Origin: Candidatus Heimdallarchaeota archaeon
GTDB taxonomy: Archaea > Asgardarchaeota > Heimdallarchaeia > Heimdallarchaeales > Heimdallarchaeaceae
Direction: 5' to 3'
DNA: 64,000 nt
NCBI GenBank assembly: GCA_019057815.1
Contig: JAHLWR010000007.1
Coordinates: forward strand, 1-64,000
Below the pieces are notes generated by a model. The model worked only from the letters and a program-made list of their open reading frames with translations, made no database searches and was not told the DNA's origin. Shown piece after piece: positions 23,936-40,404 of this stretch. How positions within the stretch are numbered: position 1 is the first letter of the stretch; every line of letters begins with the position of its first letter. A program made the translations under genes and the position numbers.

Positions 23936-23936
23936 A

Positions 23937-25325
23937 ATGTCAGATATAGAATTAACACCTGAATATTTGCTCTCTCTATCATCGAAAATTTCAGACTTTG
24001 CTACTTCTAAAGATATTCACGCAGCTGAAGTTATGTTTATTGATTCTAGAAAGATTCAGATAATGTGTTCAGGTCAGTCTATTAGTACAGCTCGAGAAAC
24101 TTCTGAATTAGGATTTGCTGTAAGAGTATTAAGAAATAATACAGAAGGATTTTCTTATACTAACAAACATGATGTCGACTCCTTAAAACAATGTGCAACA
24201 GAAGCAATAAAAATGGCTGGAGTATCTCCCCCTAAACCTGGATCGAGGTTTTCCCTACCTGCAGACTATGCTGAGATTGAGGGGATATTTAGCAAAAATT
24301 TAGCAGATACAACAATTGATGAAATAATTATCTATGCAAATGAAATCCTAAAGCCATTTCAAGAATCTCCAATCGATATTAAAACTGAGTTGAGTACAAT
24401 CCTAATATCCGAGACAGGTGTAGGTATAGTAAACTCTCTGGGAGTAGAAGGTTTTTACAAGACAAATGCGATGAATGGAGGTTTTATGGCTATCGCAAGA
24501 GAAGGAGAAAAAGTTGGTTCTCTTGTAACGGATGACTTTTTCACTAGAGATCCTTCAACAATAGATTTCAGGAGATTTGGAAAGGATCTGTGTGAAAGGG
24601 CAGTAAGAAATATAAGAGCTGAAAAAGCTACCGGGATAGAATCAGATATTGTGGTTTTTGAACCAAATGCTGTTTTCAACCCAATATATCTTACAATGAC
24701 ATTGGCTTTAGCTGCCGATAAAGTGCAACGAAATCAATCCATGTGGAAAGATAAACTAGCTGATACTATTGCAGTAAAGGAGCTTGAATTTGTAGATGAT
24801 CCTCTCACAAAAGAAGCAGGAACAGGTGCAAGAGTATTTGATGATGAAGGGGTTCCGACCCAAAAAACTGATTTAATCAAAGATGGAGTGCTAGAGAATT
24901 TCATTTTTGATGAACTAACTGCAAGTAGAGCTCAAACAGTATCAACGGGGAATTCCTATAGAGGTCAAGGAGGTACTAGCTTTATGAATCCACCCAATTT
25001 CATATTTACAAATGGTGGTATGATCTCACCTGGAAAGCAGACTCCTGAAGAGCTAATTGAAGATATAAAAACGGGTATAACCTTTGAATATTTCGCAGGT
25101 TCTATCACTATTGAAAACGGTGTTTTCAGTGGAGTTGCTAAAGGAGCTCAATTAATAAAGAATGGTTCTATTGAAAAACCTTTGACCAATGTAACTATTT
25201 CTGGTAATGTCTTTGATGTATTAAACAACATTGAAGGTTTCGGAAATGACTTAAAACTTGTAAATGCAATGATGAGAACTCCTTCAATCAGAGTAAAGGG
25301 AATAACAATAAGCACTCAAAAATAA
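23937..25325 (+). CDS. pmbA: PmbA/TldE protein
   Basis: FDDEGVPT, STGNS, ISGNVFDVL; lacks HExxH; coupled to tldD. Confidence 0.9.
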   Translation: MSDIELTPEYLLSLSSKISDFATSKDIHAAEVMFIDSRKIQIMCSGQSISTARETSELGFAVRVLRNNTEGFSYTNKHDVDSLKQCATEAIKMAGVSPPKPGSRFSLPADYAEIEGIFSKNLADTTIDEIIIYANEILKPFQESPIDIKTELSTILISETGVGIVNSLGVEGFYKTNAMNGGFMAIAREGEKVGSLVTDDFFTRDPSTIDFRRFGKDLCERAVRNIRAEKATGIESDIVVFEPNAVFNPIYLTMTLALAADKVQRNQSMWKDKLADTIAVKELEFVDDPLTKEAGTGARVFDDEGVPTQKTDLIKDGVLENFIFDELTASRAQTVSTGNSYRGQGGTSFMNPPNFIFTNGGMISPGKQTPEELIEDIKTGITFEYFAGSITIENGVFSGVAKGAQLIKNGSIEKPLTNVTISGNVFDVLNNIEGFGNDLKLVNAMMRTPSIRVKGITISTQK

Positions 25326-25431: not shown

Positions 25432-26934
25432 ATGCTTGAAACAGTACTTGTAGCTAATCGAGGAGAAATAGCTGTAAGAATCATTAGAGCTTGTAAAATC
25501 CTCAATATTAAGACTATTGCCCTTTTTACAGATGATGATGCTTTATCACTTTCTGTTAAGCTAGCTGACGAAGCCTATTCACTTGGCTCTGGTACTGTTG
25601 AAGAAACTTATCTTAATATACCAAAAATAGTAGATTTAGCCTCTGAAGCTGGAGCTGATGCAATTCATCCAGGCTATGGATTTTTAAGCGAAAATTCAAC
25701 TTTTTCACTCGAAATTAACAAGAAGGGTCTAATCTTCATTGGACCATCTCCAGAAATTTTGCAATCTTTAGGAGACAAAGTAGAAGCTAGAAAACTTGCA
25801 AAGAAGAGTGGTATTCCAATTATTCCTGGATCTGATGGTTATATCTCTTCCCTTGATGATGCAGAGAAAGTAGCAGAAGAAATTGGATATCCTATTATTA
25901 TAAAAGCAGTTTTTGGAGGTGGGGGAAGAGGGATGGAAATTGTTAAGTCAAATGAAAGTCTTGAAGTAGCATTAATGGGTTGTCAAGCAATAGCTGAAAA
26001 TTTCTTCGGAAGCAAAGAAGTTTTCATAGAAAAATACATTTCATCTCCAAAACACATTGAAATTCAATTTCTGGCTGATAATTACGATAATGTTATTCAT
26101 TTAGGTGACAGAGAGTGCTCGATTCAGCGCTCGCATCAAAAAATCATAGAGGAAGCTCCATCATTCTTGTCAACACAAAAAAGAATGGAAATGGGCTCTG
26201 ATGTCTGTAAATTGATTTCTAATATTTCTTATAGAAATGCTGGAACAGTTGAATTTCTTTGGAAAGAGGATAAGATTTACTTTAATGAAATAAATCCCAG
26301 AATTCAAGTTGAGCACCCTATTACAGAAATGATTACTGGTGTAGATCTAGTTGTTCAACAAATAAGAATTGCTAGAAATGAAGAATTGCAATTTAAACAA
26401 AAAGATATTAATTTCAAAGGACATGCGATAGAATATAGAATTAATGCAGAAGACCCTCTTCAATCCTACTTACCTCAAACAGGAGTAGTAGACGAGTTGC
26501 TTGTACCAGGAGGGCATAATGTTAGATTTGACTCCTTTTTATACCCATCTTGCAAAATCCCAGCATCTTATGATTCTCTAATTGGAAAACTAATAATCTG
26601 GGGTAACAATCGGCAAGAAGCTATTGAGAGATCAATGATGGCATTAAAGGAACTTACTATCTCAGGAGTGACAACAAATATTTCTCTACATCAAGCTATT
26701 TTAGAAACTAAGGAATTCGTTAATCGGGAAGTTAACACAGATTTCCTTGAAAAAGCGCGAATTAAGGATATTTTGAATCATTTTGAAAAAATGAAACTAG
26801 TTGCGACTATTTCAGCTTACTATAAGAATAAAGAGAACCAAAAATCATCTGCAATCATTCAAAAGAAAAATCAGCAAGCAGTTAACCGTTGGGGATTACA
26901 AAGCAAAGTTGAGCAACAAAGAAACTACCCTTGA
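25432..26934 (+). CDS. accC: Biotin carboxylase subunit of acyl-CoA carboxylase
   Basis: VANRGEIAVR, HPGYGFLSEN, GGGGRGM, RECSIQR, EINPRIQVEH, RINAED. Confidence 0.95.
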   Translation: MLETVLVANRGEIAVRIIRACKILNIKTIALFTDDDALSLSVKLADEAYSLGSGTVEETYLNIPKIVDLASEAGADAIHPGYGFLSENSTFSLEINKKGLIFIGPSPEILQSLGDKVEARKLAKKSGIPIIPGSDGYISSLDDAEKVAEEIGYPIIIKAVFGGGGRGMEIVKSNESLEVALMGCQAIAENFFGSKEVFIEKYISSPKHIEIQFLADNYDNVIHLGDRECSIQRSHQKIIEEAPSFLSTQKRMEMGSDVCKLISNISYRNAGTVEFLWKEDKIYFNEINPRIQVEHPITEMITGVDLVVQQIRIARNEELQFKQKDINFKGHAIEYRINAEDPLQSYLPQTGVVDELLVPGGHNVRFDSFLYPSCKIPASYDSLIGKLIIWGNNRQEAIERSMMALKELTISGVTTNISLHQAILETKEFVNREVNTDFLEKARIKDILNHFEKMKLVATISAYYKNKENQKSSAIIQKKNQQAVNRWGLQSKVEQQRNYP

Positions 26935-26958
26935 TGAAGCAACCAGGATGTAACTAAG

Positions 26959-27432
26959 TTGAAAAAGAAGGTAAGATTTCAAGGGAGAGAATATATCATC
27001 GAACAACTGGCAAATGGTGATATTATTGTAAACAAAGAGAGATTTTCTCCTGTTGTTTCCAATATTGGAAATCTCTACAAAGTAACAGTAAGTGATCATT
27101 ATTTTACCATCGAGTTTAAGAATCAAAAGATATATGTTGATGGAGAAGAAGTTTCAGTAGAAGTAAAACCTCATATTCCCGTAGTTTCAAGGAAAATGTC
27201 AGAAAGAGAGCATAGAACGGTAAAAATAGAAGCTCCTATACCAGGAAAAATCGTCCAAATATTAGTGAAAAAAGGGGACAAAATTGCCAAAGACCAAGAA
27301 TTGATTATACTTGAAGCTATGAAAATGAGAAACAGGATTTTAGCAACACAGAGTGGTGAAATTTCTGAAATAAAAGTAAAAGAAGGGGATATGGTCAAAC
27401 AAGACCAGATATTATTAATAATAGAAGGATGA
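26959..27432 (+). CDS. Biotin carboxyl carrier protein
   Basis: APIPGKI..LEAMKM biotinylation motif. Confidence 0.95.
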   Translation: MKKKVRFQGREYIIEQLANGDIIVNKERFSPVVSNIGNLYKVTVSDHYFTIEFKNQKIYVDGEEVSVEVKPHIPVVSRKMSEREHRTVKIEAPIPGKIVQILVKKGDKIAKDQELIILEAMKMRNRILATQSGEISEIKVKEGDMVKQDQILLIIEG

Positions 27433-27439
27433 AGACAGA

Positions 27440-28237
27440 TTACATATCAATCATTTCAATATTTTTTCTCTTCAAATTTGTTTCTAGAAATGTAAGGAAT
27501 ATTCTTTTCATTTCTTCCAAATGTTCATTTCTAGTAAAGTTATGATTAGCTTTTTCTATAACATAAAATTCTTTTTTGATTTCATTTGACACCTTTGAAT
27601 ATAGTTCTTTAAATCCAGCAATTGGTAGAATTTCATCATTATCTCCAACTACAAAACAGATAGGACATTTGATATTTTTAATTAGTTTTTTGGGGTTGTA
27701 ATGCATAGTTTGCGTTTTAAATCCTTTTTTCAAGTCTATAACTGGAAATCGCATTTGTTCATTTCTGACCCATATCTTTGTTAAATCCTCAAAAGCAATA
27801 GTTTTTGGAATCACTTCAGTATCAAAAACTGGAGATCTTACTACTAAACACTTAATTCTCGTATCTCGTGCTGCGTGACTAATCGCCATTGCACCTCCGA
27901 AACTTTCACCAAACAAAGCAATTCTAGAAGGATCAATTTCTGGAAGATGAAGGAGTTCAGTAATAATTGTATTAATGTTTAAATGAGAATTGTAAAAATC
28001 AAAAAATCCAGTACTATTTCTAACTCCTTGATAATCAAAAGAGAAAAAAGCATAAGATTTATTCACGAAGTCTTTGGCAAATCTTTTTTCATCTTTTTCA
28101 GGGGGAAAACCAGGCATACCATTACAATGGATTACCAAAGGAAACTGCCCTTCAGTTGAGGGAGTATATAGAATACAATTGACTCTTTCTCTTCCACATC
28201 TAATACTATACTTCTTTTTCCTCATCATTTTTATCAT
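27440..28237 (-). CDS. Alpha/beta-fold hydrolase (candidate thioesterase/acyltransferase)
   Basis: GESFGG nucleophile elbow, GDNDE, ANHNF; overlaps the megasynthase stop. Confidence 0.85.
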   Translation of the reverse strand: MIKMMRKKKYSIRCGRERVNCILYTPSTEGQFPLVIHCNGMPGFPPEKDEKRFAKDFVNKSYAFFSFDYQGVRNSTGFFDFYNSHLNINTIITELLHLPEIDPSRIALFGESFGGAMAISHAARDTRIKCLVVRSPVFDTEVIPKTIAFEDLTKIWVRNEQMRFPVIDLKKGFKTQTMHYNPKKLIKNIKCPICFVVGDNDEILPIAGFKELYSKVSNEIKKEFYVIEKANHNFTRNEHLEEMKRIFLTFLETNLKRKNIEMIDM

Positions 28238-31200
28238 CCTGTTTTATTTCACATACACTGATAGAATACTCTCCAACAAGCTTGTTTTCAATAATAAAGG
28301 AGTTACTCTTTTGTTTGAGTGAATCTTTCACTTTTGATACGAAGTCAACACTGAATTCTTTCTCTTTTCCACCACTTGATAGTTCTATATCGTGCAATTT
28401 CATATTCAATCCTTCACCTAATGCTTTTGTTACAGCTTCCTTGACAGTCCAATATTGAGTTCCAAGAACTTTGTCACCAGAAATGTTTTCCCTCTCATTT
28501 TCTGTGAATGCTTCTTCGTAGAAAGAAGGCTTTCTTTCCTCAATCTTTTCAATATCAATTCCAATAGGATCTTTAGATATTGTAGCTATTGCATACTTTC
28601 CTGAATGACTTATAGAAAGATTCCAATCACTTCTCTTCTTATCTTTTCGTGAATAAAGGAAGGGTTGTCCTTTTACTTGTTTTTTGATTTCGATTTCTTT
28701 ATAATCCTCAAATTCAGACACAGTAGAATATAGCTCTTTTGCTGCTAAAACACCAGCAATATACTCAATTTTTCTTTTCTGATTAGCTATTCGAGAGTAT
28801 CTAGATTTTTCATGAGCAACTAGCCATGATTCAACAAAATTAGGTTCTTTCTCGTATAATGCTGCAATTGTGGAAATAGGAACAATTCTTACTTTCTTTT
28901 CTGAAAATTGAGAATTTATCTGATAATATTCAGAGATTTCTTCAATCTTATTTTTAATGGATTCTTCAAGATCTAGTGGAATTCTTGTGTGAATCATACC
29001 TAATTTATCGAGTATGATAATAACATTTCCTTCTTTATCAGTAATCCAGACATTGAAATAACTTGTTGTTTTATCTGATTTTACAAATTCAGCTTTAGCA
29101 TAGGCAGGTGAGGATTCATTGAGAATCGTGAGTTTCTTTATGGTTGAAGGCAGAGAAAATTGCTTGTTGATAATTAGATCATAAAGACCTGCAGTTTGTA
29201 GAGCTGCTTCAACTGCTAGTGGACTAATCTCTAATTGTTGATCTTTATTCTTGAATAAAGGAAATTGTGGAATTGAAATCTTAGCAAGAACTATATTATT
29301 CTTGATTTCTTGCAATTCATCAATCACTTGGAAACTCTTTCGGTGAAAGTACATATCGTATATATCACTCTTTGTGAGTAAAGATGTTTTTCTTTCAAGG
29401 ATTTTCAGTTGTTTTACTTTAGGTAGTTTCTTCGATTCCTTTATAGATGCCACAAAATGTTCCTTTTCTATAGTTTTAGCATTTTTAACCTTTGGCGTAA
29501 AGAGTGTTTTGACAGAAAAATGTCCTCGTTCTGGATTGTATTCAACAAGAATTTCCTTATCTTCCTTTTTCTTTTGTTTAATAGCTAGATTAAATCCTAT
29601 ATCGTTGAACTCGTTAGGTTTACTTTTATTAATAATCTTGAACATCTCTGCAAATGTTTCAAGTCCCATAACTCCAGGGAATATAGGAATATTTTGTATC
29701 TGATGATCTTGCAAGAACAAATCATTTTGGAAGGATAAGATTCTATTTCCAACTATTTTTCCTTCCTTTTGATAAGTAGTATCTATCATAGGAAAATCAT
29801 TTTGTACTATCTTATCTGTCACAGGAAAATCGTCTGAAGGTGGTTTTGCAATCTCTTGCTCGTTTTCTGTCATAAATCCCAGTTTACCTGCAACAATTAC
29901 TTCGTTGTCAATGTCTTTTTCAAGAAGTTCTACAAACTTTTTTGTACCTTCTTTGGGAGGTATAGGTGTTATTCCAACTGATTGCAATATATCAAGTATA
30001 GATCCTTTTGTAGCCATTCCAATATCAGCCCAAGCAGACCAGTTAATAGCTAAAGAAGGTATTCCCTTCTGGCTTAGCATCCAACACATTCTTGATAGGT
30101 ACCCATTTGCAAATGAATAGTCGATTTGCCCTGTATTTCCGAATCTTCCAGCTATTGATGAAAAACAAATAACTCTTTTTAGTTGAGTTTGATCAATATT
30201 ATTAAGTACATTCCATATTCCTTCAACTTTTACAGAAACAATTACTCTTGATTTCTCAATCTTTTTCTTCTTGAATGACTTAGATTCCTCCAACCCTGCT
30301 GCATGAACTAATACTGTTATTGGTATGTCAAAGTCTTCTTTCACTTGTTCTAAAGCTTCTTTTATAGAGTTAACATTCCTAACATCTACAGAATAGAAGT
30401 TGGCTTCAATATCTTGTTCATAAAGATATAGCATGTTCTTTGCAACTTCAATTTGACTCAAGAATCTTTGCCATTCCCGTTCTAGAATAACAGGTGTTAC
30501 TTTTTCATGTTTACTTTGCAGTTCTACTTTCAATTCTTGCTTTTTTACTTTTAATATTTCATCAGAGTACCAAACAACTTCATCCATGTCTTCTGGTAAC
30601 CTTTCAATACCAAACAGGGCTAATTTAGGTTTAGATTTCTGGCACAATCTCTTAATGCACTCAAAAGTGATTCCTCTTCCTCCTCCAAGTACAAGAATCA
30701 AGTCTTCATTTGTAATTTGATTTTTCTCTGTAATAGTGTTAAGGTCTAGTTTTTGAATATTTTGTAATGTGAATCGCTTAGAATCTTTGTACGCTATTTC
30801 TTTATAATCATCCCAGTATTCTAGTTCAAGCAGTATTTTTTTAATAGATGATGAATAAATGTGTTTTACTTTAATATCAAATTCAAAACCTAATGTTTTC
30901 ACGAAACCTGAAATTCCCCCTGAAACAGGTACTGCATTTCCATAAAGACCGAACATCTCTTCTGTAGATATAATTGCTATTTTTAATTTCGGAGATATTT
31001 CCAAGGCTTGGAAGAGTAGGAATAATTGCTCGAAATATTGTTGATCAACAAGTCCTGCTGAGGATGCAAGGCTTGGTGGAGTTAATAGGATTAAATCATA
31101 ATCTCTTTTCTCTACTTCATCCAATTTGTAATTTAGAATATCTACTGAATTATATCTACAATTTTGTTGGTTTAGCTCTTTTAACAACTCTTTTGTAATA

Positions 31201-34200
31201 TTAGAGCTTAAATCTATAACTAATATTTCAGATGATGTTAGTTGAACAACCTCAGCAGTTTCTTTATCTAATGAAATCTGAACAGGAGATACTTCTCTTG
31301 CACTAATTTCACTTTCTAAAGACTCTTCTTTCGTTTCTATTATAACTTCCTCTGGTGTTTGGGTTATGACAGTAAGATTTGCATCAACAAATTTTCTTAT
31401 ATCAGTTATTGTTCTAATATCTCCAATGTTTTCATCCTCAGAGATTTCAAAACCAAATACATTTCTAACCTCACCAAAAATCTCCACTTGTTTGATTGTA
31501 TCAATACCTAAATCCTCTTCGAGATCCATCTCTAAATCTATGTCATTTGGTTCATAACCAGTTATTTTTGATATAATTTTTACGATTTCTATATTGATAT
31601 TTGATGATTCTTGTTTTTCCTCTATTACTTCAGTCGTTACTTCCACCGTTACTTCAGTCGTTAAAACTTGTTTGTCACCTTGAAGATGAGTGTTAACGTA
31701 TCCTACAATTTCCTTTACTGTTCGGTATTCCGCTAAACTTAAATCTTCAGATGTTTTTATGGTGAATTTATCTCTAATTTCACCAAAAATCTCCACTTGT
31801 TTGATTGTATCAATTCCTAAGTCTTCTTCGAGATCCATCTCTAGATCTATAACATCAGGTTCATAACCAGTTATTTTGGATATGATGTTTACAATTTCTA
31901 CGTCGATATTAGATGATTCTTGCTTTTTCTCAATGTCTTTAATTGGTAGAATTACTTTCTCATTTCCGAGATTTTCATTTACAAAAGTTGCAATATCCTC
32001 TACAGTTCGATATTCTGCTAAACTTAAATCTTCAGACATTTCCATATTGAATTTATCTCTAATTTCACCAAAAATCTCTGCTTGTTTGATCGTATCAATG
32101 CCTAAATCTTCTTCGAGATCCATTTCCACTTCAATAGAATCAGTATCATAACCTGTTGTTTTAGAAATGATAGTAATTATATCTGTCATAACTTGTTGAT
32201 TAGCAACTTGCATTGTAATTGGTTTTGGTTTAATTGCGATAACTTCAGCACTAGAAGGATGGGAAACAGTTTTTAATCTCAACACACGTCCCTCAAGATG
32301 AAGCTGAGTCTTGTTTCCACCAAGAGAGCTCAACCAATTATCATATTCTTTAGATATGAATCTATCTTTGTAACTGTTAAGTCTAAACAGAGCAAAGGCT
32401 AGTTGAGATCCAAAACCAGCTGCAAACTTTAGTGCATATTTTTTCCTTTCTTCTTCTCCTTTCGAGAATTTAAATTTAGTAAATGCAGGATCTATTTCTT
32501 TTAGATTAGCGATAGGGGGTAATTTTCCTTTTTCCATGGATTTGATAGCAATACACTCTTCTAATCCTGCACCCATAGCATGCCCTGTAAACCCTTTTGT
32601 GTTGATGATAGTCATATCATATGCATCCTTTCCAAAAACACGTTCTAGAGTTACAATCTCTGCTTCAGCTGAACCTCCTCTTGCTGGAGTGTATGTTTCA
32701 TGTGAAACAAACATGCCATTCTTAGCTATTTCTTTTCGTGAAATGTTGTGTACATCCTCCATTTTGACAACAAACTTTTCCATTTCTTTGTAAATTTGAT
32801 CAACATCAAGTCTAGATCCGTGAAAAGCATTATTGGAGAAAAATGTACCAAGAAGGTCTACAATTGGTTTAACTCCTCTTTTCACAAACGATTCAGAGCT
32901 TTCAATTATTAGACCAGCAGCAGCTGCTCCTATTAATAAACCATGTCTATTTTTCCCAAAAGGTAGAGCTGCTTCTTCAACTTTTGCCTTTGTTGAAACA
33001 CCTCCTGCAGCTAAAAATCCTGCACCTATCCATGGTAGAAGATCTGGACTCGATGCATTATCTCCAGCAATGACAATAACTCTTTTACATCTTCCATTCC
33101 TTATCCAGTCTTCAGCTACTCCAATAGCTTGTGTCGTTGAAGCGCATGCTGAATTTATTTGAGTATTTGGTCCCTTAGCTTTGATCAATTGTGCGAATTG
33201 AGAATGACCCATTGACAATATCTTGTATATAAAATCTCTACTAAACTGTCTTTTATTATCATTGTTAGTTATATATTGAAGATTTTCGTTATACCATTTT
33301 CTTAACTCTTCTTTAATTTGTACATTACTAATTTCACTACTTAATAGATTTAAAACTGTCTCGATTTCTTTTCTATTTTTTTCTTCAAAAACAGAAATAA
33401 AGTGATTAGAAATTTCCTTAATGAGATTGTTATAACCAGGAAAAGCTGAAGCGAAGATGATTCCTGTATCTTCACGTAAATCCTCTGGTAGAGCCCAATC
33501 TCCTTGTATCACTTTACCTGTCGTTGTCATTATTTCTGTTTTTACTAGTGGAATTCCCGCATCTCTTAATGCCTCATAACCAGCACCAATAGCCAGTTGA
33601 AAAGTTGAATCAAGAGCGTTTAGAAGTTTTGGATTGATATTATAATCTTTTTCAAGATCAAAACTACCAAGTTGTCCTGCTAAACTAATAACTTTGGATA
33701 TGTCATCTATATTCTCGAAAGTAGCATTACCATCAGGTGATTTTACCAATCGGATGATGTTCTTATCTAGGATTTTTTGTTTTGTCTGATAATCAACCGC
33801 ATCAATAAGATTTTCTCCTGAAAGTATGCGGTCAATATTCTGATCATCAAAAACTCTATTTGTTTTGCCTGGTATTCCTATCCCAACACCAGTAATACCT
33901 ATTAAACCTGTATTAATTTTAAGAGCCTTATGCTTTTTCAATAAATCTAGAGATTCTCTATATTTTGTATCATATAAATCGAAACTTTGCATGAAGAAGG
34001 ATTTGATTAGGTTTTTGTGCTCTCTTAAATAATCACTGAAATAAGGATTAGAAGAAAGTTCTTTAAATTCAATATCATCTTCCAGAATTCCAAATGCTGA
34101 TATCTGATCCCTTTCAACGCTTATTTCTACTTTGGCTTTCTTCTGTTGATTAACTATCTCGAGTATTTTCTTCACAGTTCTATTTGTTTTTTCAATTTCA

Positions 34201-37200
34201 CTTTCTTTTGGTGATAGTAAAGAGAAGAAATGAACATTTGTTTGTTCTTTTAATATATCTTGAGCAAAATTGGCTAACGCTCGTCTAGGTCCAACTTCAA
34301 CAAAAATTCTTCCTCCATCTTCTTGCATGTTTCTAATTTCATCTATCCATTTTACTGAAGAACTGATTTGTTGAAGAAGTAAAGATCTAATTTCTTCGGG
34401 ATTTTCAGAGTGTTTCTTCCCTGTAACATTACAATAAACTGGAATAGAAGGTTTGTTGTAATCTAAAGATGAAAGAAGATTTTCCAACCCTTTCTCAGCT
34501 TCTTTAACAATTTTTGAATGAAAAGCTGTTGAAACGTTTAACTTTTTCGCATTTATCCCTTTTAGTGAGAACAATTCAATAGCTTTGTCTATACCTCTTT
34601 CTTCTCCACTAATTACAGTTTGTGTAGTTGAATTATAGTTAGCAATCGTCACATAAAAATCAGAAATACTATCTACTACTTCTCTCACTTCCTGAGCAGA
34701 TGCAAATATAGCAGCCATTGCGCCTTTTATTCTTTCTGCAGCTGTTCCCATAGCTCTTCCACGTGCTATAACAGCCTTTAAACCATCTTGAAAAGTTATG
34801 ACATCCGCTGCAACAAGAGCAGAATATTCACCAAGACTATGTCCAGCAACTTTCGAAGGCAATATTCCTTTTTCTTTAAGCAATTCAAATAGAGCTATTT
34901 CTACTACAAACAATGCTGGTTGCGTATACTTGGTATCTCTAAGTCTTGCTTCATTTTCATCTTTTGACAGATGTTCAGACCCAAATAGAATTTCTTTTAA
35001 ATTAAATTGACCAAAATTCTGACAAATTTTTTCCGCACTATTGATTACATTCTTAACAGAACTAAGTTCATCATAAAGTTCGTTTATCATCCCTAAATAT
35101 TGACTTCCTTGTCCTGTAAATAAGAAACAGATTTGACCTGTTTTCATATCTTGTTTCCTATCCAGTTGTGGAGAGAGTATCTGGGAAGCTTCAAGCTGTA
35201 TTATTTTTTCTTCTGTAAAATAGCTAACCTTCTTTGGTGAATACTCTTCAAGGATTGTATGGTAATTAGCTCCTCCAAATCCAAATGCTGAAACTCCAGC
35301 TCTTCTAATAGGAACATTTTCAATTTTCCATTCTTTTAATTCAGTATTAATATAAAGTAAAGACTTTTCCCAATTAATGTTTGGATTCAATTCATTTACA
35401 TTAACAGAAGGAAGAAGTTTCTTCTTGTATAAAGCCAATACAGTCTTGATAAGAGAAGCAATACCTGCAGCACTTTTCATATGTCCTATTTGACTTTTAA
35501 TGGAACCAACAGCTATTTTCTTAGTTCTTTTAGATTTTGAAAATATATCCTCTAGAACAAGCAATTCAGCTTGATCTCCAACTATTGTTGAAGTACCATG
35601 AGCTTCAATATAATCTATATCATTAAGAGTTATCTTAGCTTTCTTGATAGCCATTAAAATAGCTTGTTTTTGACCTTCTGGGTTAGGTGCAGTAATACCT
35701 TTACCTTTTCCATCAGAAGAGGAGCCTATACTTGAGATAATAGAATAGATTTTGTCTCCATCTTTAAGAGCATCTGATAATCTTTTCAAAACCATAAAAC
35801 CTGCGCCCTCTCCCATAACGAAACCATCAGCTTTTGCGTCAAAAGGTCTAGAGCCTGTAGCAGATAATGTTCTGATTTTACTGAATTTAACATATGAAGT
35901 TATATCCATCGACCTATCTGCGCCACCTACAAGCACAACATCATAGTTTTTAGCTAAAAGACCATTTACAGCAGTATCAACAGCAGCAATACTTGAAGCA
36001 CACGCAGCATCTGTAGTCATTGACTTGCCTGTAAGATTGAAAACATTTGCAATTCGTCCTGCTATAATATTTGAAAGCTCACCAGGCATGGTATCTTCTG
36101 TTATTTCAGGATATTTATCCAAATAAGATTTCTTCAAATCGCTCAAAAATGTATCTTGTTTTTCATCATCAAGATTCTGAAAGATTGGATTATTTCTTAT
36201 TTCTTTAACTACTTCTGGAAAGAATAATCGTTTATTATTATTTCTTTGGTTTTCCCCTCCAAGAGCGTTTCCAATAATAGTAGCAATATTCAGTCTTATT
36301 TTCCCGTTAGTTGGGATACCAGCATCTTCTAGAGCTTGTTTTGAAGCATCTAAAGACCATTTTTGAACAAAATCCATTCTATCAGCTATAGTAGGAGGAA
36401 TCCTATATTTAATCGAATTAAATTTAAACTTCTTAACAAAAGCTCCGATTTTTGTGTAAGTTTTATCAGTGGCTTCAATATTTTTATCAAAAAAGATTGC
36501 TGGATCCCATCTATCTTTAGGAATCTCGGAAATAGAATAGCGTTTTGTTATAAGATTGTTCCAGAATTCGTCTATATTCAAAGCATCAGGAAACACACAG
36601 CCCAATCCTACAATGGCAATCCTTTCAACGGTTTCTAACTCTAAGACTGGTTCTTGAACTGGACTAGTTTTAACATCTAAATCAGGTAATGATAAAATGT
36701 TGAAAACCTGTTTTGCGTACTCTTCCCCCCCTTCAATAACATTATAGTGTATATCTGATATTCTATTTACATTCCTTTTAATGGTAACAATATCTCCTGT
36801 CATAAAACAACCAAGTTCTTCTTGATCATTTTCAGAGACAGATATGAATTGAGTTGTTGAAATAGAACCTGGTGTATGGTCTGTATTCCACTTTTCTGCT
36901 TTTGAAGCTATTCTTAGAGCTCCTAAGTTGTCTTTTTCATATAGCTCTTTTCTTTCCGCTATTCTCAGTCCTACTTTTACTCTAGACAACTCTTTTTCTA
37001 GAGTAGATTCCACAAAAGGAGATGAAGCAACTCTTGCTCTTGTATTAACAGAAGCACCAATAACTTTAGTCTGCTTTGTGTTAAGCAAAATTTCCTGATA
37101 CTTTGCGGATAGAGCTCTTGTTGAAACAATCTCTTCTGTTAGCAAATAAGCTGTTCCCATTTGAATACCAGGATTGATAAGGTCTAGATGTTTTCCTATC

Positions 37201-38759
37201 ATTCCAGCAACCATTACTGTGCTTAATGAATCGCTAATACCTCCAGCGAAAATAAGATTTAGTTTTTGCTTTATTTGACTCCTCTGGGTATCAAGATATT
37301 CCAATATCTTTTCCCATAAAATGAAGGAAGTTGCAATTCCTATATGACCCCCACACTCTGATCCCTCAAGAACTAGGTTGTCTAATTCATTCTTAATTGC
37401 TTCTTTGAACATTGATAGAGCTGGAGTGTGAAAAAGAGTTTTGAAACCTAATTGTGCCACTTTTAATGCTAAATCTATGGTTCCTGCAGCGATTAATACA
37501 TAATCTGGTTTGTATTCTTGCATTATTTCAAGCTGATCTTCCCTTCTTTCTTTTATTGCTTCTAAACCTATTATTCCACAACCATAACGAATATTTTGCA
37601 ATTTAGAGTCTGAAGTTTCAAATAACTCTTTAACTTCTTCCTTTAGCAATCCACCTAGAGCAATTATAGGTAGAGCTCCATTATTAGAAATTTTGTTTGC
37701 AAAATCAACATTATCTGAAATATTAGCCATTGGTCCTTGAATAACAGGAATTTCAATACCAAAGTGTTTTGTGAAGTCAGAATTTTTACTAAAAGGCCAA
37801 TCTGCTTTAACATTTATTATTTGAGATCCAATAATTGAATATAAACCATGTAAGAATCCTTCAAGATTTCCAAATTTATCTTTAATATATTGAGCAAAAC
37901 CTATTCCACAATCTAAAGGTAAAAATGCATCCTTTATTTCTTCTTCTTGAAAGAATCTATGCCCTATTGACATCTTTTTTATTTTGTTAAAGAATTGCTC
38001 TTCATCTAGTTGAGATAGTTGATTTTTCTCAATCTCCTTGACGTTTCGAATACTCCTATTAGCAATTTTTCCAGCTAAACGATATTTAGTGTTAAATGAT
38101 TCACCAACAATATATGAATCATTTTCATCTAAATCTTCCAAGTATTTTTTAATATTATCATCTAATGGACACTCAGGAAGCAAATAAAGCTGACTCTCAT
38201 AAACAATTCCTAATGAACCACCTATTAGAGCAGATATAGCGTTATAAACACCAAAACCTCCTTGGATAATAAAAGGATAGCCAGCTTCATAGAAAGATTG
38301 AATCTGAATAAAGGACGTTGTTTCACCTATCAAACCTCCAGATTCTTTACCTTTTACCAAAAAGAAATCTGCCCAATGATCCTTATTTTTAGCGTCATGT
38401 AAGCTTATAACTTCTGCAATAACATATTTGCACTTTTCACGTACATCTTGAATATCAATGTCCTCTATTTGTAATCCAATTATAACTATCGGGATTTTAC
38501 CAATCTCATCTAAATGAATTAATTGGTTTTTGGATGAAACTCTAATGCCCCACAAATTGTTCCTTGGGATATTATTATAACATCTAGTCAGAATTTCCTT
38601 AATGTTTCCCTCTTTAAGATTCTCTAAATCGATAAGTCCTACTCCACCTTGTTTAGAAAGATCTATTGCTAATTGTGGATCGACTAATCCTTTAGGTGAA
38701 TAACCCCATATGGGAAATTTTAGATCTAGTTGTTTTTTTAGCTCTTCAGTCTTTTTCAT
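28206..38759 (-). CDS. Iterative type I PKS / Pfa-like fatty acid megasynthase: ER-like, ER, KS, AT, KS, ACPx3, KR, DH, PPTase
   Basis: FMN TIM barrels (KGKESGG; PVIQGPM, EGSECGGH, FAGGI, QMGTAYL); KS1 DAACASS/EAHGTST/GHMKSAAG; AT GQGSQY/GHSLG/AFHS; KS2 NSACAS/SHETYT/GHAMGAG; 3x DLGIDTIKQ; KR GGGRG/YSFAN; DH DHQIQNIPIFPG; PPTase SISHS/GIDIE/WTVKEAVTKA. Confidence 0.95.
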   Translation of the reverse strand: MKKTEELKKQLDLKFPIWGYSPKGLVDPQLAIDLSKQGGVGLIDLENLKEGNIKEILTRCYNNIPRNNLWGIRVSSKNQLIHLDEIGKIPIVIIGLQIEDIDIQDVREKCKYVIAEVISLHDAKNKDHWADFFLVKGKESGGLIGETTSFIQIQSFYEAGYPFIIQGGFGVYNAISALIGGSLGIVYESQLYLLPECPLDDNIKKYLEDLDENDSYIVGESFNTKYRLAGKIANRSIRNVKEIEKNQLSQLDEEQFFNKIKKMSIGHRFFQEEEIKDAFLPLDCGIGFAQYIKDKFGNLEGFLHGLYSIIGSQIINVKADWPFSKNSDFTKHFGIEIPVIQGPMANISDNVDFANKISNNGALPIIALGGLLKEEVKELFETSDSKLQNIRYGCGIIGLEAIKERREDQLEIMQEYKPDYVLIAAGTIDLALKVAQLGFKTLFHTPALSMFKEAIKNELDNLVLEGSECGGHIGIATSFILWEKILEYLDTQRSQIKQKLNLIFAGGISDSLSTVMVAGMIGKHLDLINPGIQMGTAYLLTEEIVSTRALSAKYQEILLNTKQTKVIGASVNTRARVASSPFVESTLEKELSRVKVGLRIAERKELYEKDNLGALRIASKAEKWNTDHTPGSISTTQFISVSENDQEELGCFMTGDIVTIKRNVNRISDIHYNVIEGGEEYAKQVFNILSLPDLDVKTSPVQEPVLELETVERIAIVGLGCVFPDALNIDEFWNNLITKRYSISEIPKDRWDPAIFFDKNIEATDKTYTKIGAFVKKFKFNSIKYRIPPTIADRMDFVQKWSLDASKQALEDAGIPTNGKIRLNIATIIGNALGGENQRNNNKRLFFPEVVKEIRNNPIFQNLDDEKQDTFLSDLKKSYLDKYPEITEDTMPGELSNIIAGRIANVFNLTGKSMTTDAACASSIAAVDTAVNGLLAKNYDVVLVGGADRSMDITSYVKFSKIRTLSATGSRPFDAKADGFVMGEGAGFMVLKRLSDALKDGDKIYSIISSIGSSSDGKGKGITAPNPEGQKQAILMAIKKAKITLNDIDYIEAHGTSTIVGDQAELLVLEDIFSKSKRTKKIAVGSIKSQIGHMKSAAGIASLIKTVLALYKKKLLPSVNVNELNPNINWEKSLLYINTELKEWKIENVPIRRAGVSAFGFGGANYHTILEEYSPKKVSYFTEEKIIQLEASQILSPQLDRKQDMKTGQICFLFTGQGSQYLGMINELYDELSSVKNVINSAEKICQNFGQFNLKEILFGSEHLSKDENEARLRDTKYTQPALFVVEIALFELLKEKGILPSKVAGHSLGEYSALVAADVITFQDGLKAVIARGRAMGTAAERIKGAMAAIFASAQEVREVVDSISDFYVTIANYNSTTQTVISGEERGIDKAIELFSLKGINAKKLNVSTAFHSKIVKEAEKGLENLLSSLDYNKPSIPVYCNVTGKKHSENPEEIRSLLLQQISSSVKWIDEIRNMQEDGGRIFVEVGPRRALANFAQDILKEQTNVHFFSLLSPKESEIEKTNRTVKKILEIVNQQKKAKVEISVERDQISAFGILEDDIEFKELSSNPYFSDYLREHKNLIKSFFMQSFDLYDTKYRESLDLLKKHKALKINTGLIGITGVGIGIPGKTNRVFDDQNIDRILSGENLIDAVDYQTKQKILDKNIIRLVKSPDGNATFENIDDISKVISLAGQLGSFDLEKDYNINPKLLNALDSTFQLAIGAGYEALRDAGIPLVKTEIMTTTGKVIQGDWALPEDLREDTGIIFASAFPGYNNLIKEISNHFISVFEEKNRKEIETVLNLLSSEISNVQIKEELRKWYNENLQYITNNDNKRQFSRDFIYKILSMGHSQFAQLIKAKGPNTQINSACASTTQAIGVAEDWIRNGRCKRVIVIAGDNASSPDLLPWIGAGFLAAGGVSTKAKVEEAALPFGKNRHGLLIGAAAAGLIIESSESFVKRGVKPIVDLLGTFFSNNAFHGSRLDVDQIYKEMEKFVVKMEDVHNISRKEIAKNGMFVSHETYTPARGGSAEAEIVTLERVFGKDAYDMTIINTKGFTGHAMGAGLEECIAIKSMEKGKLPPIANLKEIDPAFTKFKFSKGEEERKKYALKFAAGFGSQLAFALFRLNSYKDRFISKEYDNWLSSLGGNKTQLHLEGRVLRLKTVSHPSSAEVIAIKPKPITMQVANQQVMTDIITIISKTTGYDTDSIEVEMDLEEDLGIDTIKQAEIFGEIRDKFNMEMSEDLSLAEYRTVEDIATFVNENLGNEKVILPIKDIEKKQESSNIDVEIVNIISKITGYEPDVIDLEMDLEEDLGIDTIKQVEIFGEIRDKFTIKTSEDLSLAEYRTVKEIVGYVNTHLQGDKQVLTTEVTVEVTTEVIEEKQESSNINIEIVKIISKITGYEPNDIDLEMDLEEDLGIDTIKQVEIFGEVRNVFGFEISEDENIGDIRTITDIRKFVDANLTVITQTPEEVIIETKEESLESEISAREVSPVQISLDKETAEVVQLTSSEILVIDLSSNITKELLKELNQQNCRYNSVDILNYKLDEVEKRDYDLILLTPPSLASSAGLVDQQYFEQLFLLFQALEISPKLKIAIISTEEMFGLYGNAVPVSGGISGFVKTLGFEFDIKVKHIYSSSIKKILLELEYWDDYKEIAYKDSKRFTLQNIQKLDLNTITEKNQITNEDLILVLGGGRGITFECIKRLCQKSKPKLALFGIERLPEDMDEVVWYSDEILKVKKQELKVELQSKHEKVTPVILEREWQRFLSQIEVAKNMLYLYEQDIEANFYSVDVRNVNSIKEALEQVKEDFDIPITVLVHAAGLEESKSFKKKKIEKSRVIVSVKVEGIWNVLNNIDQTQLKRVICFSSIAGRFGNTGQIDYSFANGYLSRMCWMLSQKGIPSLAINWSAWADIGMATKGSILDILQSVGITPIPPKEGTKKFVELLEKDIDNEVIVAGKLGFMTENEQEIAKPPSDDFPVTDKIVQNDFPMIDTTYQKEGKIVGNRILSFQNDLFLQDHQIQNIPIFPGVMGLETFAEMFKIINKSKPNEFNDIGFNLAIKQKKKEDKEILVEYNPERGHFSVKTLFTPKVKNAKTIEKEHFVASIKESKKLPKVKQLKILERKTSLLTKSDIYDMYFHRKSFQVIDELQEIKNNIVLAKISIPQFPLFKNKDQQLEISPLAVEAALQTAGLYDLIINKQFSLPSTIKKLTILNESSPAYAKAEFVKSDKTTSYFNVWITDKEGNVIIILDKLGMIHTRIPLDLEESIKNKIEEISEYYQINSQFSEKKVRIVPISTIAALYEKEPNFVESWLVAHEKSRYSRIANQKRKIEYIAGVLAAKELYSTVSEFEDYKEIEIKKQVKGQPFLYSRKDKKRSDWNLSISHSGKYAIATISKDPIGIDIEKIEERKPSFYEEAFTENERENISGDKVLGTQYWTVKEAVTKALGEGLNMKLHDIELSSGGKEKEFSVDFVSKVKDSLKQKSNSFIIENKLVGEYSISVCEIKQDDKNDEEKEV

Positions 38760-38769
38760 ATTAACACCT

Positions 38770-40347
38770 CTAAACTGGCATTATACCGTGCTTTCGACTA
38801 GGGGTTTTTTCTCTTTTATTCTGAAGCATCTGAAGTGCAGCAGATATTTCTCTCCTAGTTTCCTCTGGAAGAATCACTTTATCGACATAACCCAACTCTG
38901 CTGCTTTGTAAGGATTAGCGAATTCATTCTTGTAATCAGTAATGAAATCTAATAAAACAGCTTCTGGATTTTCAGAAGTCTTCAATTTCTTACGATGTAG
39001 TATTTTACATGCACCTTCTGCACCCATAACAGCAATTTCAGCTGTAGGCCAAGCTAGATTGATATCACAACCTAGATGCTTTGAGCTCATAACTATGTAA
39101 GCTCCACCGTAAGCTTTTCGAATAATTACTGAAATCTTTGGAATTGTTGCTTCTGAGTATGCATAAAGAAGCTTAGCACCATGTCGTATAATCCCATTGT
39201 GTTCTTGTTTTACTCCAGGCATAAAACCTGGAACATCTACAAATGTTATAATAGGCAAATTAAATGAATCGCAAAAACGTATAAAACGAGCAGCTTTATC
39301 TGAAGCGTGAGAATCTATTGCACCACCTAAAAACAGCGGTTGATTAGCTATTAAGCCTATAGAACTACCATTTAGCTTACCAAAACCAATAATCATGTTT
39401 TTAGCCCAATTACTTTGAAGTTCAAAAAATGATTCAGAGTCAACAGTAGTTTCAATTATCTCTTTCATATTATAGGGATCATTTTCCTTCTTAGGGATAA
39501 TTTTTGATTGATTTTTTTGATTTACAGCAGATATTTTTCCTTCAGAACTTGGAGGTTCATCTAAATTATTTGAAGGAATATAAGAGAGTAATTTTTTTGT
39601 CAAATCAAGTGTTTCTTCTTCAGTTTCACCAACTTGATGACACACACCTGATTGAGAACTATGTACATCACTTCCTCCTAATTCATAGAAAGTAACATCT
39701 TCTCCTGTAACAGCTTTTACAACTTCTGGTCCTGTTACAAACATGAAAGAACTAGTTTGATTCATTAAAATAAAATCAGTTAATGCTGGTGAATATACCG
39801 CCCCACCAGCACAAGGACCCAGAACAACAGAAATTTGAGGTATAACTCCTGAAGCTTTTACATTTCTATAAAATATATCACCATATCCCGCTAAGGAATC
39901 TATACCTTCTTGAATTCTTGCACCTCCAGAATCTAAAATCCCAATCACAGGACAACCGGTTTTAAACGCTAAATCCATTATTTTACAAATCTTTTTAGCG
40001 TGAGCGTTTCCAAGACTTCCTCCAAAAACTGTAAAATCTTGGCTATACAAAAAGACTTGCCTCCCAGAAATTGTACCATAACCAATAACTACGCCATCCC
40101 CAATAGGACGATCTTTTTGCATACCAAATCCAGATTTCTGATGGACTACAAACTCATCTATCTCAACAAAAGAATCCTCATCAATAAGTAAATCTATTCT
40201 TTCTCTGGCAGTAAGTTTACCTTTATTGTGTTGACTCAAAATTTTGTCTTTTCCCCCGCCAACCTTACTTTTTTCTCTTAGTAAAGCCAACTTTCTAAAC
40301 TCGGAATCACTATCTGAAGGTACGATATTATTTGCTCTCTTTGGCAT
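38770..40347 (-). CDS. pccB: Acyl-CoA carboxylase carboxyltransferase subunit (PccB-type)
   Basis: GKLTARERI, QDFTVFGGS, DSGGARIQEG, GPCAGGAVYSP, DVPGF, RKAYGGAY, RKHG. Confidence 0.95.
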   Translation of the reverse strand: MPKRANNIVPSDSDSEFRKLALLREKSKVGGGKDKILSQHNKGKLTARERIDLLIDEDSFVEIDEFVVHQKSGFGMQKDRPIGDGVVIGYGTISGRQVFLYSQDFTVFGGSLGNAHAKKICKIMDLAFKTGCPVIGILDSGGARIQEGIDSLAGYGDIFYRNVKASGVIPQISVVLGPCAGGAVYSPALTDFILMNQTSSFMFVTGPEVVKAVTGEDVTFYELGGSDVHSSQSGVCHQVGETEEETLDLTKKLLSYIPSNNLDEPPSSEGKISAVNQKNQSKIIPKKENDPYNMKEIIETTVDSESFFELQSNWAKNMIIGFGKLNGSSIGLIANQPLFLGGAIDSHASDKAARFIRFCDSFNLPIITFVDVPGFMPGVKQEHNGIIRHGAKLLYAYSEATIPKISVIIRKAYGGAYIVMSSKHLGCDINLAWPTAEIAVMGAEGACKILHRKKLKTSENPEAVLLDFITDYKNEFANPYKAAELGYVDKVILPEETRREISAALQMLQNKREKTPSRKHGIMPV

Positions 40348-40404
40348 TGCTTGTATTAAAATAAACAGTCAATAAAAAGAATATTCTCTTTCTATGACTA
40401 TATA

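What the first reader, a model, noticed from the sequence alone, without database searches (positions are those of the whole stretch)
31380..32190. All three ACP domains have Thr at the phosphopantetheine site (DLGIDTIKQ)
Seen: the three carriers read LGIDTIKQAEI, LGIDTIKQVEI and LGIDTIKQVEI (codons ACG, ACA, ACA), against the PfaA consensus LGIDSIKRVEI. No other carrier protein is in the cluster. Established: PPTases modify a Ser. Inference: conservation of Thr across diverged copies in an otherwise intact enzyme implies Thr-phosphopantetheinylation by the fused PPTase, or a non-standard carrier chemistry. I recall similar GIDT carriers in some bacterial Pfa-like proteins, so this may define a class.
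Basis: partly seen in the sequence, partly recalled or inferred. Interest (0 to 1): 0.85.

Follow-up and report, generated by a model that had tools for sequence, protein, structure and literature searches.

The report
Threonine-type acyl carrier domains, Asgard megasynthase
All three carrier domains of a giant self-contained fatty-acid/polyketide synthase in a Heimdall-type Asgard archaeon have threonine where studied carrier proteins have the serine that holds the phosphopantetheine arm. The same swap is fixed across a very large bacterial and archaeal enzyme family, which points to an unmeasured threonine-linked form of this textbook cofactor attachment.

Summary
The minus-strand gene 28206-38759 (3517 aa) reads ER-KS-AT-KS2-ACPx3-KR-DH-PPTase. 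Its ACPs carry T2223 (ACG), T2318 (ACA) and T2421 (ACA) in DLGIDTIKQ[AV]EI, aligned on the phosphopantetheine Ser of solved ACPs.

This is not local decay:
- Among 659 carrier domains of relatives the site is Thr 612, Ser 42, other 5.
- In 80 relatives picked by KS2 similarity alone it is Thr 214, Ser 9, other 5.
- No other column of the domain has Ser above 27%.

Ser replaces Thr several independent times, sometimes beside Thr in one array. Thr is coupled to Gln at +3.

The genome's only PPTase is fused to this protein, with its catalytic residues invariant. The only other ACP-like ORF has Lys at the site. A complex model puts T2421 against the PPTase catalytic Glu (0.69 against 0.01 for the best control).

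Best reading (about 0.65): the fused Sfp-type PPTase attaches phosphopantetheine to Thr. This has not been measured. I found no paper describing it.

This scan has noted the same feature in at least 64 other genomes.

The parts
28206..38759 (-). Megasynthase gene, 3517 aa: ER(NMO/PfaD-like)-KS1-AT-KS2-ACP1-ACP2-ACP3-KR-DH-PPTase
   Evidence: ORF list and translation. Pfam domains. Best NCBIfam match is TIGR02813 PfaA at 891 bits, below its cut-off of 1010. Catalytic residues are invariant in 40 orthologues.
31959..32213 (-). ACP1 (residues 2183-2267); Thr2223 codon ACG at 32091-32093
   Evidence: HMM domain bounds, codon, aligned to the Ppant Ser of solved ACPs.
31677..31928 (-). ACP2 (residues 2278-2361); Thr2318 codon ACA at 31806-31808
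31368..31619 (-). ACP3 (residues 2381-2464); Thr2421 codon ACA at 31497-31499
   Evidence: T2421 is invariant in 40 Asgard orthologues. In the complex model it touches PPTase E3441.
28209..28886 (-). Fused Sfp-type PPTase domain (residues 3292-3517): SISHS (H3385), GIDIE (D3402, E3404), WTVKEAVTK (K3440, E3441, K3445)
   Evidence: PF01648 and PF22624. PDB hits to AcpS, Sfp and human AASDHPPT. It is the only PF01648 hit in the genome. Its catalytic residues are 100% conserved in 78 Thr-only relatives.
35397..36626 (-). KS1 (residues 712-1121), Cys920/His1054/His1093
34221..35126 (-). Acyltransferase (residues 1212-1513), GHSLG Ser1308, Arg1333, AFHS His1414
32340..33842 (-). KS2, the family-defining second ketosynthase-like domain (residues about 1640-2140), which keeps Cys1872/His2020/His2060
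   Evidence: It was used as the ACP-independent probe and as the tree marker.
30024..30695 (-). Ketoreductase (residues 2689-2912), Ser2868/Tyr2881/Asn2885
28920..29771 (-). PKS-type dehydratase (from residue 2997), His3019
36660..38759 (-). N-terminal FMN-type enoyl reductase region (NMO/FabK/PfaD-like, residues about 1-700)
   Evidence: PF03060; TIGR03151 FabK-like.
38770..40347 (-). Carboxyltransferase, 10 bp upstream and co-oriented; likely malonyl-CoA supply
   Evidence: PF01039, 631 bits.
27440..28237 (-). Alpha/beta-hydrolase that overlaps the synthase 3' end by 32 bp; candidate release enzyme
25432..27432 (+). Biotin carboxylase (25432-26934) and biotin carboxyl carrier protein (26959-27432)
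40405..41205 (+). Biotin-protein ligase family gene, divergent from the carboxyltransferase
   Evidence: PF03099.

Best explanation
The three tandem ACP domains are working carriers. Their prosthetic arm is attached to the hydroxyl of Thr (T2223, T2318, T2421) instead of Ser. The C-terminal Sfp-type PPTase of the same polypeptide transfers 4'-phosphopantetheine from CoA onto that Thr. In this reading E3441 of the W-T-x-K-E-A motif acts as the base, and D3402 and E3404 hold Mg2+. The holo-ACPs then serve an iterative, fully reducing Pfa-like synthase (KS, AT, KS2, KR, DH, ER). That synthase is fed malonyl-CoA by the adjacent biotin carboxylase system and is probably unloaded by the overlapping alpha/beta-hydrolase.

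Shown here: the Thr sits at the canonical site. Thr is fixed family-wide and exchanges only with Ser. There is no alternative carrier or alternative PPTase substrate in this genome. All catalytic residues are intact.

Inferred: the covalent Thr-O-phosphopantetheine link itself, the role of the Gln at +3, and the product.
For: 1. Site identity. The Thr aligns on the Ppant Ser of PigH and AcpM.
2. Family-wide fixation. Of 659 HMM-detected carrier domains, 612 have Thr, 42 Ser and 5 another residue. In the 80 proteins retrieved by KS2 similarity only, the counts are Thr 214, Ser 9, other 5.
The Thr cases use all four Thr codons and span Acidobacteriota, Chloroflexota, Actinomycetota, Elusimicrobiota, Myxococcota, Desulfobacterota, Gemmatimonadota and others.
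4. The Thr motif is in 60 of 400 genomes of the phylum and 26 of 30 of the window's family, with 0 hits for the reversed control pattern.
5. Essentially only hydroxyl residues are tolerated. On a KS2 tree of 196 members, 187 are all-Thr, 7 mixed and 2 all-Ser, needing at least 7 changes. The nearest relative, P0067, reads Ser-Thr-Ser.
6. No column of the domain has Ser above 27%, so there is no alternative conserved Ser.
7. The only PF01648 PPTase in this 95%-complete genome is the fused one. The only other PP-binding-like ORF has Lys at the site in all four orthologues read.
8. PPTase catalytic residues are invariant.
9. Complex model of PPTase, ACP3, CoA and Mg: ipSAE 0.69 against 0.01 for the best of 3 controls. 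That mark was reached by 58 of 80 solved complexes and 2 of 110 mismatched pairs. The runs share at least 92% of contacts and the partner pLDDT is at least 74. T2421 touches E3441. Solved PPTase-carrier complexes exist, so this pass shows likeness to them, not proof.
Against: No measurement of the modification exists for any member.

In E. coli, ACP S36T 'cannot be post-translationally modified by 4'-PP' (PMC3340395). So at least AcpS-type enzymes reject Thr.

The fused PPTase shows no visible active-site change that would explain acceptance of a secondary alcohol. It is unchanged in the all-Ser relative P0313.

Some bacterial members have no dedicated PPTase nearby. One Myxococcales genome has a single PPTase for everything, which requires dual Ser/Thr specificity.

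The first protein search was biased by 5-residue words in the motif; the KS2-based set corrects for this.
Confidence: 0.65

Rival explanations
1. The Thr carriers are never phosphopantetheinylated. They act as structural or docking domains, and the synthase works on CoA thioesters or on a carrier supplied in trans.
For: E. coli S36T ACP is not modified (PMC3340395). Some bacterial members have no PPTase nearby. An 80-aa ACP homologue exists elsewhere in the genome.
Against: The 80-aa protein has Lys at the Ser position, and its neighbouring Ser is not conserved. A fused PPTase with invariant catalytic residues would then have no substrate in this genome. A ten-residue motif above 93% conserved, with only Thr or Ser at the site across more than 650 domains, is the pattern of an active attachment site. 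Decayed copies with other residues at the site are single copies, always beside Thr copies.
Confidence: 0.12
2. Thr carries a different group or chemistry than 4'-phosphopantetheine. Examples would be another CoA-derived arm, or a direct O-acyl (oxoester) intermediate, installed by the fused transferase or by the AT.
For: The Thr-Gln(+3) coupling shows that the local chemistry differs from Ser carriers. No literature on Thr-Ppant was found.
Against: The transferase has fully canonical Sfp-type CoA/Mg motifs. KS1 and KS2 keep Cys-His-His triads suited to thioester chemistry. Ser and Thr copies coexist in one array, served by one PPTase.
Confidence: 0.1
3. Phosphopantetheine is attached, but to another hydroxyl of the domain. 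Candidates are the 99%-conserved Thr of the TGY motif or the Thr before helix IV.
For: Two other columns are conserved hydroxyl positions: T 99%, and T 87% with S 9%.
Against: Both are ordinary structural positions of ACPs and lie away from the helix-II N-terminus. The complex model places the canonical site, T2421, at the catalytic Glu. Ser substitutions with accompanying loss of Gln(+3) occur at the canonical column.
Confidence: 0.03

Closest known systems
'Type R' secondary-lipid (Pfa-like) synthase clusters of Shulse & Allen 2011 (PMC3098273): Koribacter, Solibacter, Elusimicrobium, Roseiflexus
   Same: Core order KS-MAT-CLF-ACP(3-6)-KR with an associated PPTase, and in some cases an acetyl-CoA carboxylase gene in the cluster. 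Elusimicrobium minutum and Acidobacteriota loci carry the same DLGIDTVKQ Thr motif.
   Different: Here ER, DH and PPTase are fused into the same polypeptide, and the host is an Asgard archaeon. The paper never mentions threonine (0 occurrences), and the product of Type R is unknown.
Tandem ACP domains of PfaA-type PUFA synthases with their PPTase PfaE (NCBIfam TIGR02813)
   Same: Tandem ACP repeats after KS-AT, an LGID-x-IK-x-x-EI helix-II motif, an FMN-type ER, and a need for an Sfp-type PPTase. TIGR02813 is the best NCBIfam hit.
   Different: The score of 891 is below the cut-off of 1010. The motif has Thr and Gln (DTIKQ) where PfaA has Ser and Arg (DSIKR). It is one polypeptide rather than PfaA-E. 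KS2 keeps its Cys.
Sfp-type (group II) PPTases acting on Ser of carrier proteins (Sfp 1QR0/4MRT, human AASDHPPT 2CG5)
   Same: Two-lobed PF22624 + PF01648 fold, with the GxDxE and W-x-x-KEA-x-x-K motifs. The predicted docking is on ACP helix II.
   Different: The presumed acceptor is a secondary alcohol (Thr). The enzyme is fused to its synthase, as in fungal FAS.
E. coli ACP S36T mutant
   Same: It is the same substitution at the same position.
   Different: In E. coli it blocks modification by AcpS and kills function (PMC3340395). Here Thr is the conserved natural state of a large family.

Membership tests
Carrier protein domain (Pfam PF00550 PP-binding) | Sequence match to the four-helix carrier profile above the gathering score | tested here: met
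   93.1 bits against a cut-off of 20.8, in three stretches. PDB ACP hits have E-values down to 2e-9.
Carrier protein domain (Pfam PF00550 PP-binding) | Conserved Ser at the N-terminus of helix II (DSL/GxDS) as the Ppant attachment site | tested here: not met
   Thr is at the aligned position in all three copies.
Carrier protein domain (Pfam PF00550 PP-binding) | Covalent 4'-phosphopantetheine on the domain | not testable with these tools
   Needs mass spectrometry. The only indirect support is.
PfaA, polyketide-type PUFA synthase (NCBIfam TIGR02813) | Whole-protein score at or above the curated cut-off | tested here: not met
   891.3 bits against a cut-off of 1010.1.
PfaA, polyketide-type PUFA synthase (NCBIfam TIGR02813) | Tandem ACPs with the LGIDSIKRVEI motif | tested here: not met
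   The ACPs are tandem, but the motif is LGIDTIKQ[AV]EI.
'Type R' secondary lipid synthase (Shulse & Allen 2011) | KS-MAT-CLF-ACP(3-6)-KR protein with an associated PPTase | tested here: met
   The domain order KS-AT-KS2-ACPx3-KR is present and the PPTase is fused. ER and DH are extra domains. The description is taken from PMC3098273.
'Type R' secondary lipid synthase (Shulse & Allen 2011) | Placement by KS phylogeny with the named Type R organisms | not tested
   The reference sequences of Koribacter, Solibacter and Roseiflexus were not in hand. An Elusimicrobium minutum locus (L118) shares the Thr motif.
Sfp-type PPTase (PF01648 + PF22624) | Profile matches above cut-off, plus the Mg/CoA motifs GxDxE and WxxKEAxxK | tested here: met
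   65.2 and 32.8 bits. D3402, E3404, K3440, E3441 and K3445 are invariant.

The most novel reading that the evidence does not exclude
O-(4'-phosphopantetheinyl)-threonine is a natural and widespread cofactor linkage. It is specified by the carrier motif D-L-G-[IV]-D-T-[VI]-K-Q and used by thousands of Pfa-like lipid synthases in about ten bacterial phyla and in Asgard and other archaea. Ordinary-looking Sfp-type PPTases accept both Ser and Thr. The coupled Gln at +3 adapts the carrier to the secondary alcohol.
Probability: 0.6. Interest if true: 0.85.

Novelty: new variant of a known kind. Interest (0 to 1): 0.75.

Why it matters
The rule 'phosphopantetheine is attached to a conserved serine' underlies textbooks, PROSITE and Pfam site annotation, genome-mining tools and carrier-protein engineering. 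In E. coli the Ser-to-Thr mutant is the standard dead control.

A large natural family with Thr at that site would do several things if it is modified:
- It would add a new protein-cofactor linkage.
- It would change how carriers are called active or inactive in genome mining.
- It would offer an orthogonal carrier/PPTase pair for engineering.
- It would bear on whether Asgard archaea, which have no other ACP or PPTase, make ACP-dependent fatty-acid-type lipids. That question is relevant to the archaeal-bacterial 'lipid divide' and to eukaryogenesis.

If Thr is not modified, thousands of intact megasynthases would need a carrier-independent mechanism, which would be equally surprising.

Tried and rejected
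Gene neighbourhoods of the database proteins could therefore not be read. PPTase positions were obtained through the genome search on five loci instead.
- The search of protein representatives with KS1-AT returned only multi-modular PKSs ranked by summed score.
- The first DNA pattern for the collection scan had too few specified bases.
- Literature searches for the motif strings, for Asgard with ACP/PPTase, and for six phrasings of Thr phosphopantetheinylation found nothing relevant. The library holds open-access papers and preprints only. The id I recalled for the 2014 PPTase review was not held.
- Local decay or pseudogene is rejected.
- 'A stand-alone Ser-ACP does the job' is rejected, because that ORF has Lys at the site.
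- 'Thr is tied to the fused PPTase clade' is rejected.
- A search for a Thr-specific signature in the PPTase found none. There is only one all-Ser comparator, so this test is weak.
Full report
**What is there**

Window 28206-38759 (minus strand) is a single 3517-aa ORF. Pfam gives the following domains:
- an N-terminal NMO/FabK/PfaD-type enoyl reductase
- KS1
- AT
- a second KS-like domain (KS2)
- three PP-binding domains
- KR
- a PKS-type DH
- a C-terminal Sfp-type PPTase (PF22624 + PF01648)

The flanking genes are a carboxyltransferase (10 bp upstream, same strand), an alpha/beta-hydrolase that overlaps the 3' end by 32 bp, a biotin carboxylase, a BCCP and a biotin ligase. The best NCBIfam match is PfaA (TIGR02813), but at 891 bits it is below the cut-off of 1010.

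The nearest relatives are Heimdall-, Loki-, Thor- and Hod-type Asgard proteins. A genome labelled 'same family' has the same coordinates as Ca. Heimdallarchaeum aukensis CP084166. The host is therefore an Asgard archaeon of that family.

**The observation**

The three carriers read DLGIDTIKQAEI, DLGIDTIKQVEI and DLGIDTIKQVEI. The Thr residues are T2223 (ACG, 32091-32093), T2318 (ACA, 31806-31808) and T2421 (ACA, 31497-31499). The copies share only 68-76% of their DNA and 51-64% of their protein sequence. phmmer against all PDB chains aligns the Thr on the phosphopantetheine Ser of PigH and AcpM.

**Is it local decay?**

No. Five lines of evidence agree.

1. A profile built from the window's ACPs finds 659 carrier domains in the family proteins collected here. 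The site is Thr in 612, Ser in 42 and another residue in 5.
2. The first protein search used words from the ACP region and could favour the motif. I therefore repeated retrieval with the KS2 domain only (3529 proteins at E <= 1e-10). In the 80 proteins found only by that search, the site is Thr 214, Ser 9, other 5.
3. A degenerate DNA pattern for E-[AED]-D-L-G-[IV]-D-x-[IVM]-K-Q, with x free to be Thr, Ser, Arg, Cys or Trp, was scanned over one genome per prokaryotic species. All four Thr codons occur. The hosts include Acidobacteriota, Chloroflexota, Actinomycetota, Elusimicrobiota (including E. minutum), Myxococcota, Desulfobacterota (including Desulfocicer vacuolatum DSM 3385), Gemmatimonadota, Rhodothermales, KSB1, Spirochaetota and Heimdall archaea.
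4. In the window's phylum the Thr pattern occurs in 60 of 400 genomes and in 26 of 30 of its own family. The reversed control pattern gave no hit.
5. The motif D-L-G-I-D-T-x-K-Q-x-E is above 93% conserved at nine positions.

**Only hydroxyl residues are tolerated**

On a KS2 tree of 196 family members, 187 are all-Thr, 7 are mixed and 2 are all-Ser (one clade). At least 7 changes of state are needed (FastTree, so the topology is approximate).

Genuine Ser copies inside the Thr-type context occur in:
- P0313 (all five copies)
- P0034 (four copies)
- P0067 and P0116 (Ser-Thr-Ser; P0067 is the window's nearest relative at 68% KS2 identity)
- P0010 (last copy)
- P0341 (first copy)

Most other non-Thr/non-Ser cases belong to a short, divergent ACP-like domain that follows the array in some homologues.

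No other column of the domain has Ser above 27%. The two other conserved hydroxyls are the Thr of the TGY motif and the Thr before helix IV, both ordinary structural positions. So if an arm is attached, the canonical column is the only sensible site, and Thr and Ser are interchangeable there.

One detail emerged from these counts: Thr is tightly coupled to Gln at +3. The counts are T,Q 608; T,non-Q 4; S,Q 4; S,non-Q 14. These counts are not phylogenetically independent, but several separate Ser lineages have lost the Gln.

**Is there another carrier, or another use for the PPTase?**

In this 95%-complete genome, PF01648 finds only the fused PPTase. PF00550 finds only the three ACPs and one marginal 80-aa ORF on another contig. 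PF14573 finds nothing.

The 80-aa ORF is a real ACP homologue (E = 4e-8 to PDB 2kwl). However, it aligns Lys, not Ser, on the attachment position. The motifs are DLDMSK in this genome and in G011, and DLGLDK and DLGLTK in two further orthologues. The Ser at -1 is therefore not conserved. That removes the rival 'a stand-alone Ser-ACP does the job'.

All catalytic residues of the synthase are invariant in 40 Asgard orthologues:
- KS1: C920, H1054, H1093
- AT: S1308, R1333, H1414
- KS2: C1872, H2020, H2060
- KR: S2868, Y2881, N2885
- DH: H3019
- PPTase: D3402, E3404, K3440, E3441, K3445

The PPTase core is 100% conserved in 78 Thr-only relatives. A conserved PPTase whose only possible substrates are Thr carriers is the strongest indirect argument that Thr is modified.

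**Docking model**

A complex model of PPTase 3292-3517 with ACP3 2378-2466, with CoA and Mg riding along, scored ipSAE 0.69 against 0.01 for the best of three controls. The mark was reached by 58 of 80 solved complexes and 2 of 110 mismatched pairs. The runs share at least 92% of their contacts, and the partner pLDDT is at least 74.

In the model T2421 touches E3441, the Glu of the KEA motif. I2422 touches E3404 and W3437. Solved PPTase-carrier complexes exist, so this pass shows that the pair resembles them. It does not show that Thr is transferred to.

**What argues against**

- Nobody has measured the modification.
- E. coli ACP S36T 'cannot be post-translationally modified by 4'-PP' (PMC3340395).
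- The fused PPTase has no visible Thr-specific change. It is the same in the all-Ser P0313 and in the mixed P0067 and P0341.
- Thr carriers are not tied to a fused PPTase. The PPTase is fused in a Myxococcota genome and in H. aukensis (which also has a second PPTase 2.5 kb downstream). It is adjacent in an Acidobacteriaceae genome. In a Desulfobacula genome it is remote, about 0.4 and 2.7 Mb away. In a Myxococcales chromosome it is remote, and it is the only PPTase in the genome.

The last two points require natural Sfp-type PPTases that accept both Ser and Thr. The mixed Ser/Thr arrays require the same.

**Comparison with the known**

The closest described system is the 'Type R' secondary-lipid synthase of Shulse & Allen 2011 (KS-MAT-CLF-ACP3-6-KR plus a PPTase, sometimes with an ACC gene). 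Its product is unknown, and that paper does not mention threonine.

PfaA-type PUFA synthases share the tandem ACPs and the helix-II motif, but with Ser and Arg (DSIKR) in place of Thr and Gln.

No paper in the searchable library holds the motif strings or any of six phrasings of Thr phosphopantetheinylation. That library covers open-access papers and preprints only. From my own memory I also know of no report of this linkage.

**Earlier notes of this scan**

After forming this reading I looked up the scan's notes. The same feature has been noted in at least 64 other genomes. Follow-ups reached the same verdict and the same closest-known system.

- the Lys at the site of the only other ACP-like ORF
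- the Thr-Gln(+3) coupling
- the unchanged PPTase core in Ser-only and mixed relatives
- the contact of T2421 with the catalytic Glu in the model

**Verdict**

It is a class feature of a very large, uncharacterised Pfa-like synthase family. The most likely mechanism is Thr-O-phosphopantetheinylation by the fused PPTase (about 0.65). The rivals are:
- unmodified carriers (0.12)
- another group or chemistry on Thr (0.10)
- another attachment residue (0.03)

I class it as a new variant of a known kind. Interest is high because a simple mass-spectrometry experiment would settle a textbook-level question.

Noticed in passing
L004:1477-1716 (+) = G000 contig C2:14844-15083 (outside the window): An 80-aa ACP homologue (PF00550 21.1 bits; E = 4e-8 to PDB 2kwl) lies beside a luciferase-like oxidoreductase. 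It has a conserved Lys where ACPs have the Ppant Ser (DLDMSK, DLGLDK, DLGLTK in orthologues). It was found in 24 of 30 other genomes of the window's family and not in the other families of the class with this query.
   Followed up: partly
window 31368-32213 and homologues P0002-P0350: Thr at the attachment site is coupled to Gln three residues later (T,Q 608; T,non-Q 4; S,Q 4; S,non-Q 14). Ser copies tend to carry A, T, I, V or R there.
   Followed up: partly
window 32340-33842 (-): The second KS-like domain keeps an invariant Cys-His-His triad (C1872, H2020, H2060 in 40 orthologues). The chain-length-factor domains of PUFA synthases lack the Cys. Two active ketosynthases may therefore share one AT.
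   Followed up: no
homologues P0300, P0302, P0303, P0308, P0310, P0311, P0314 (after their tandem ACPs): A short, divergent ACP-like domain follows the Thr-type array in some archaeal relatives (motifs such as GIDKSQ, GIESPQ, GLDGTT, GLDSST). It looks like a different domain type rather than a decayed carrier.
   Followed up: no
genomes G064-G077 of family f5 (same class as the window's genome): In 11 of 22 genomes that lack the Thr-KQ motif there are small stand-alone PPTases (open frames of 162-206 aa). Some genomes of family f7 have one in addition to the fused PPTase. Their substrate is unknown.
   Followed up: no
L024 / G014 (Ca. Heimdallarchaeum aukensis CP084166) 495224-498129: This genome has the fused PPTase plus a second PPTase frame of 208 aa about 2.5 kb downstream, with an identical PF01648 score. 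This may be a recent duplication.
   Followed up: no
window 27440-28237 (-) and 25432-27432 (+), 38770-41205: The alpha/beta-hydrolase overlaps the synthase stop by 32 bp and is a candidate release enzyme. A complete biotin-dependent carboxylase set (BC, BCCP, CT) plus a biotin ligase surrounds the synthase. The locus looks self-sufficient for malonyl-CoA supply.
   Followed up: partly
window 22535-25325 (+): Tandem TldD/PmbA-family metallopeptidase genes lie just upstream of the biotin carboxylase. No link to the synthase is evident.
   Followed up: no
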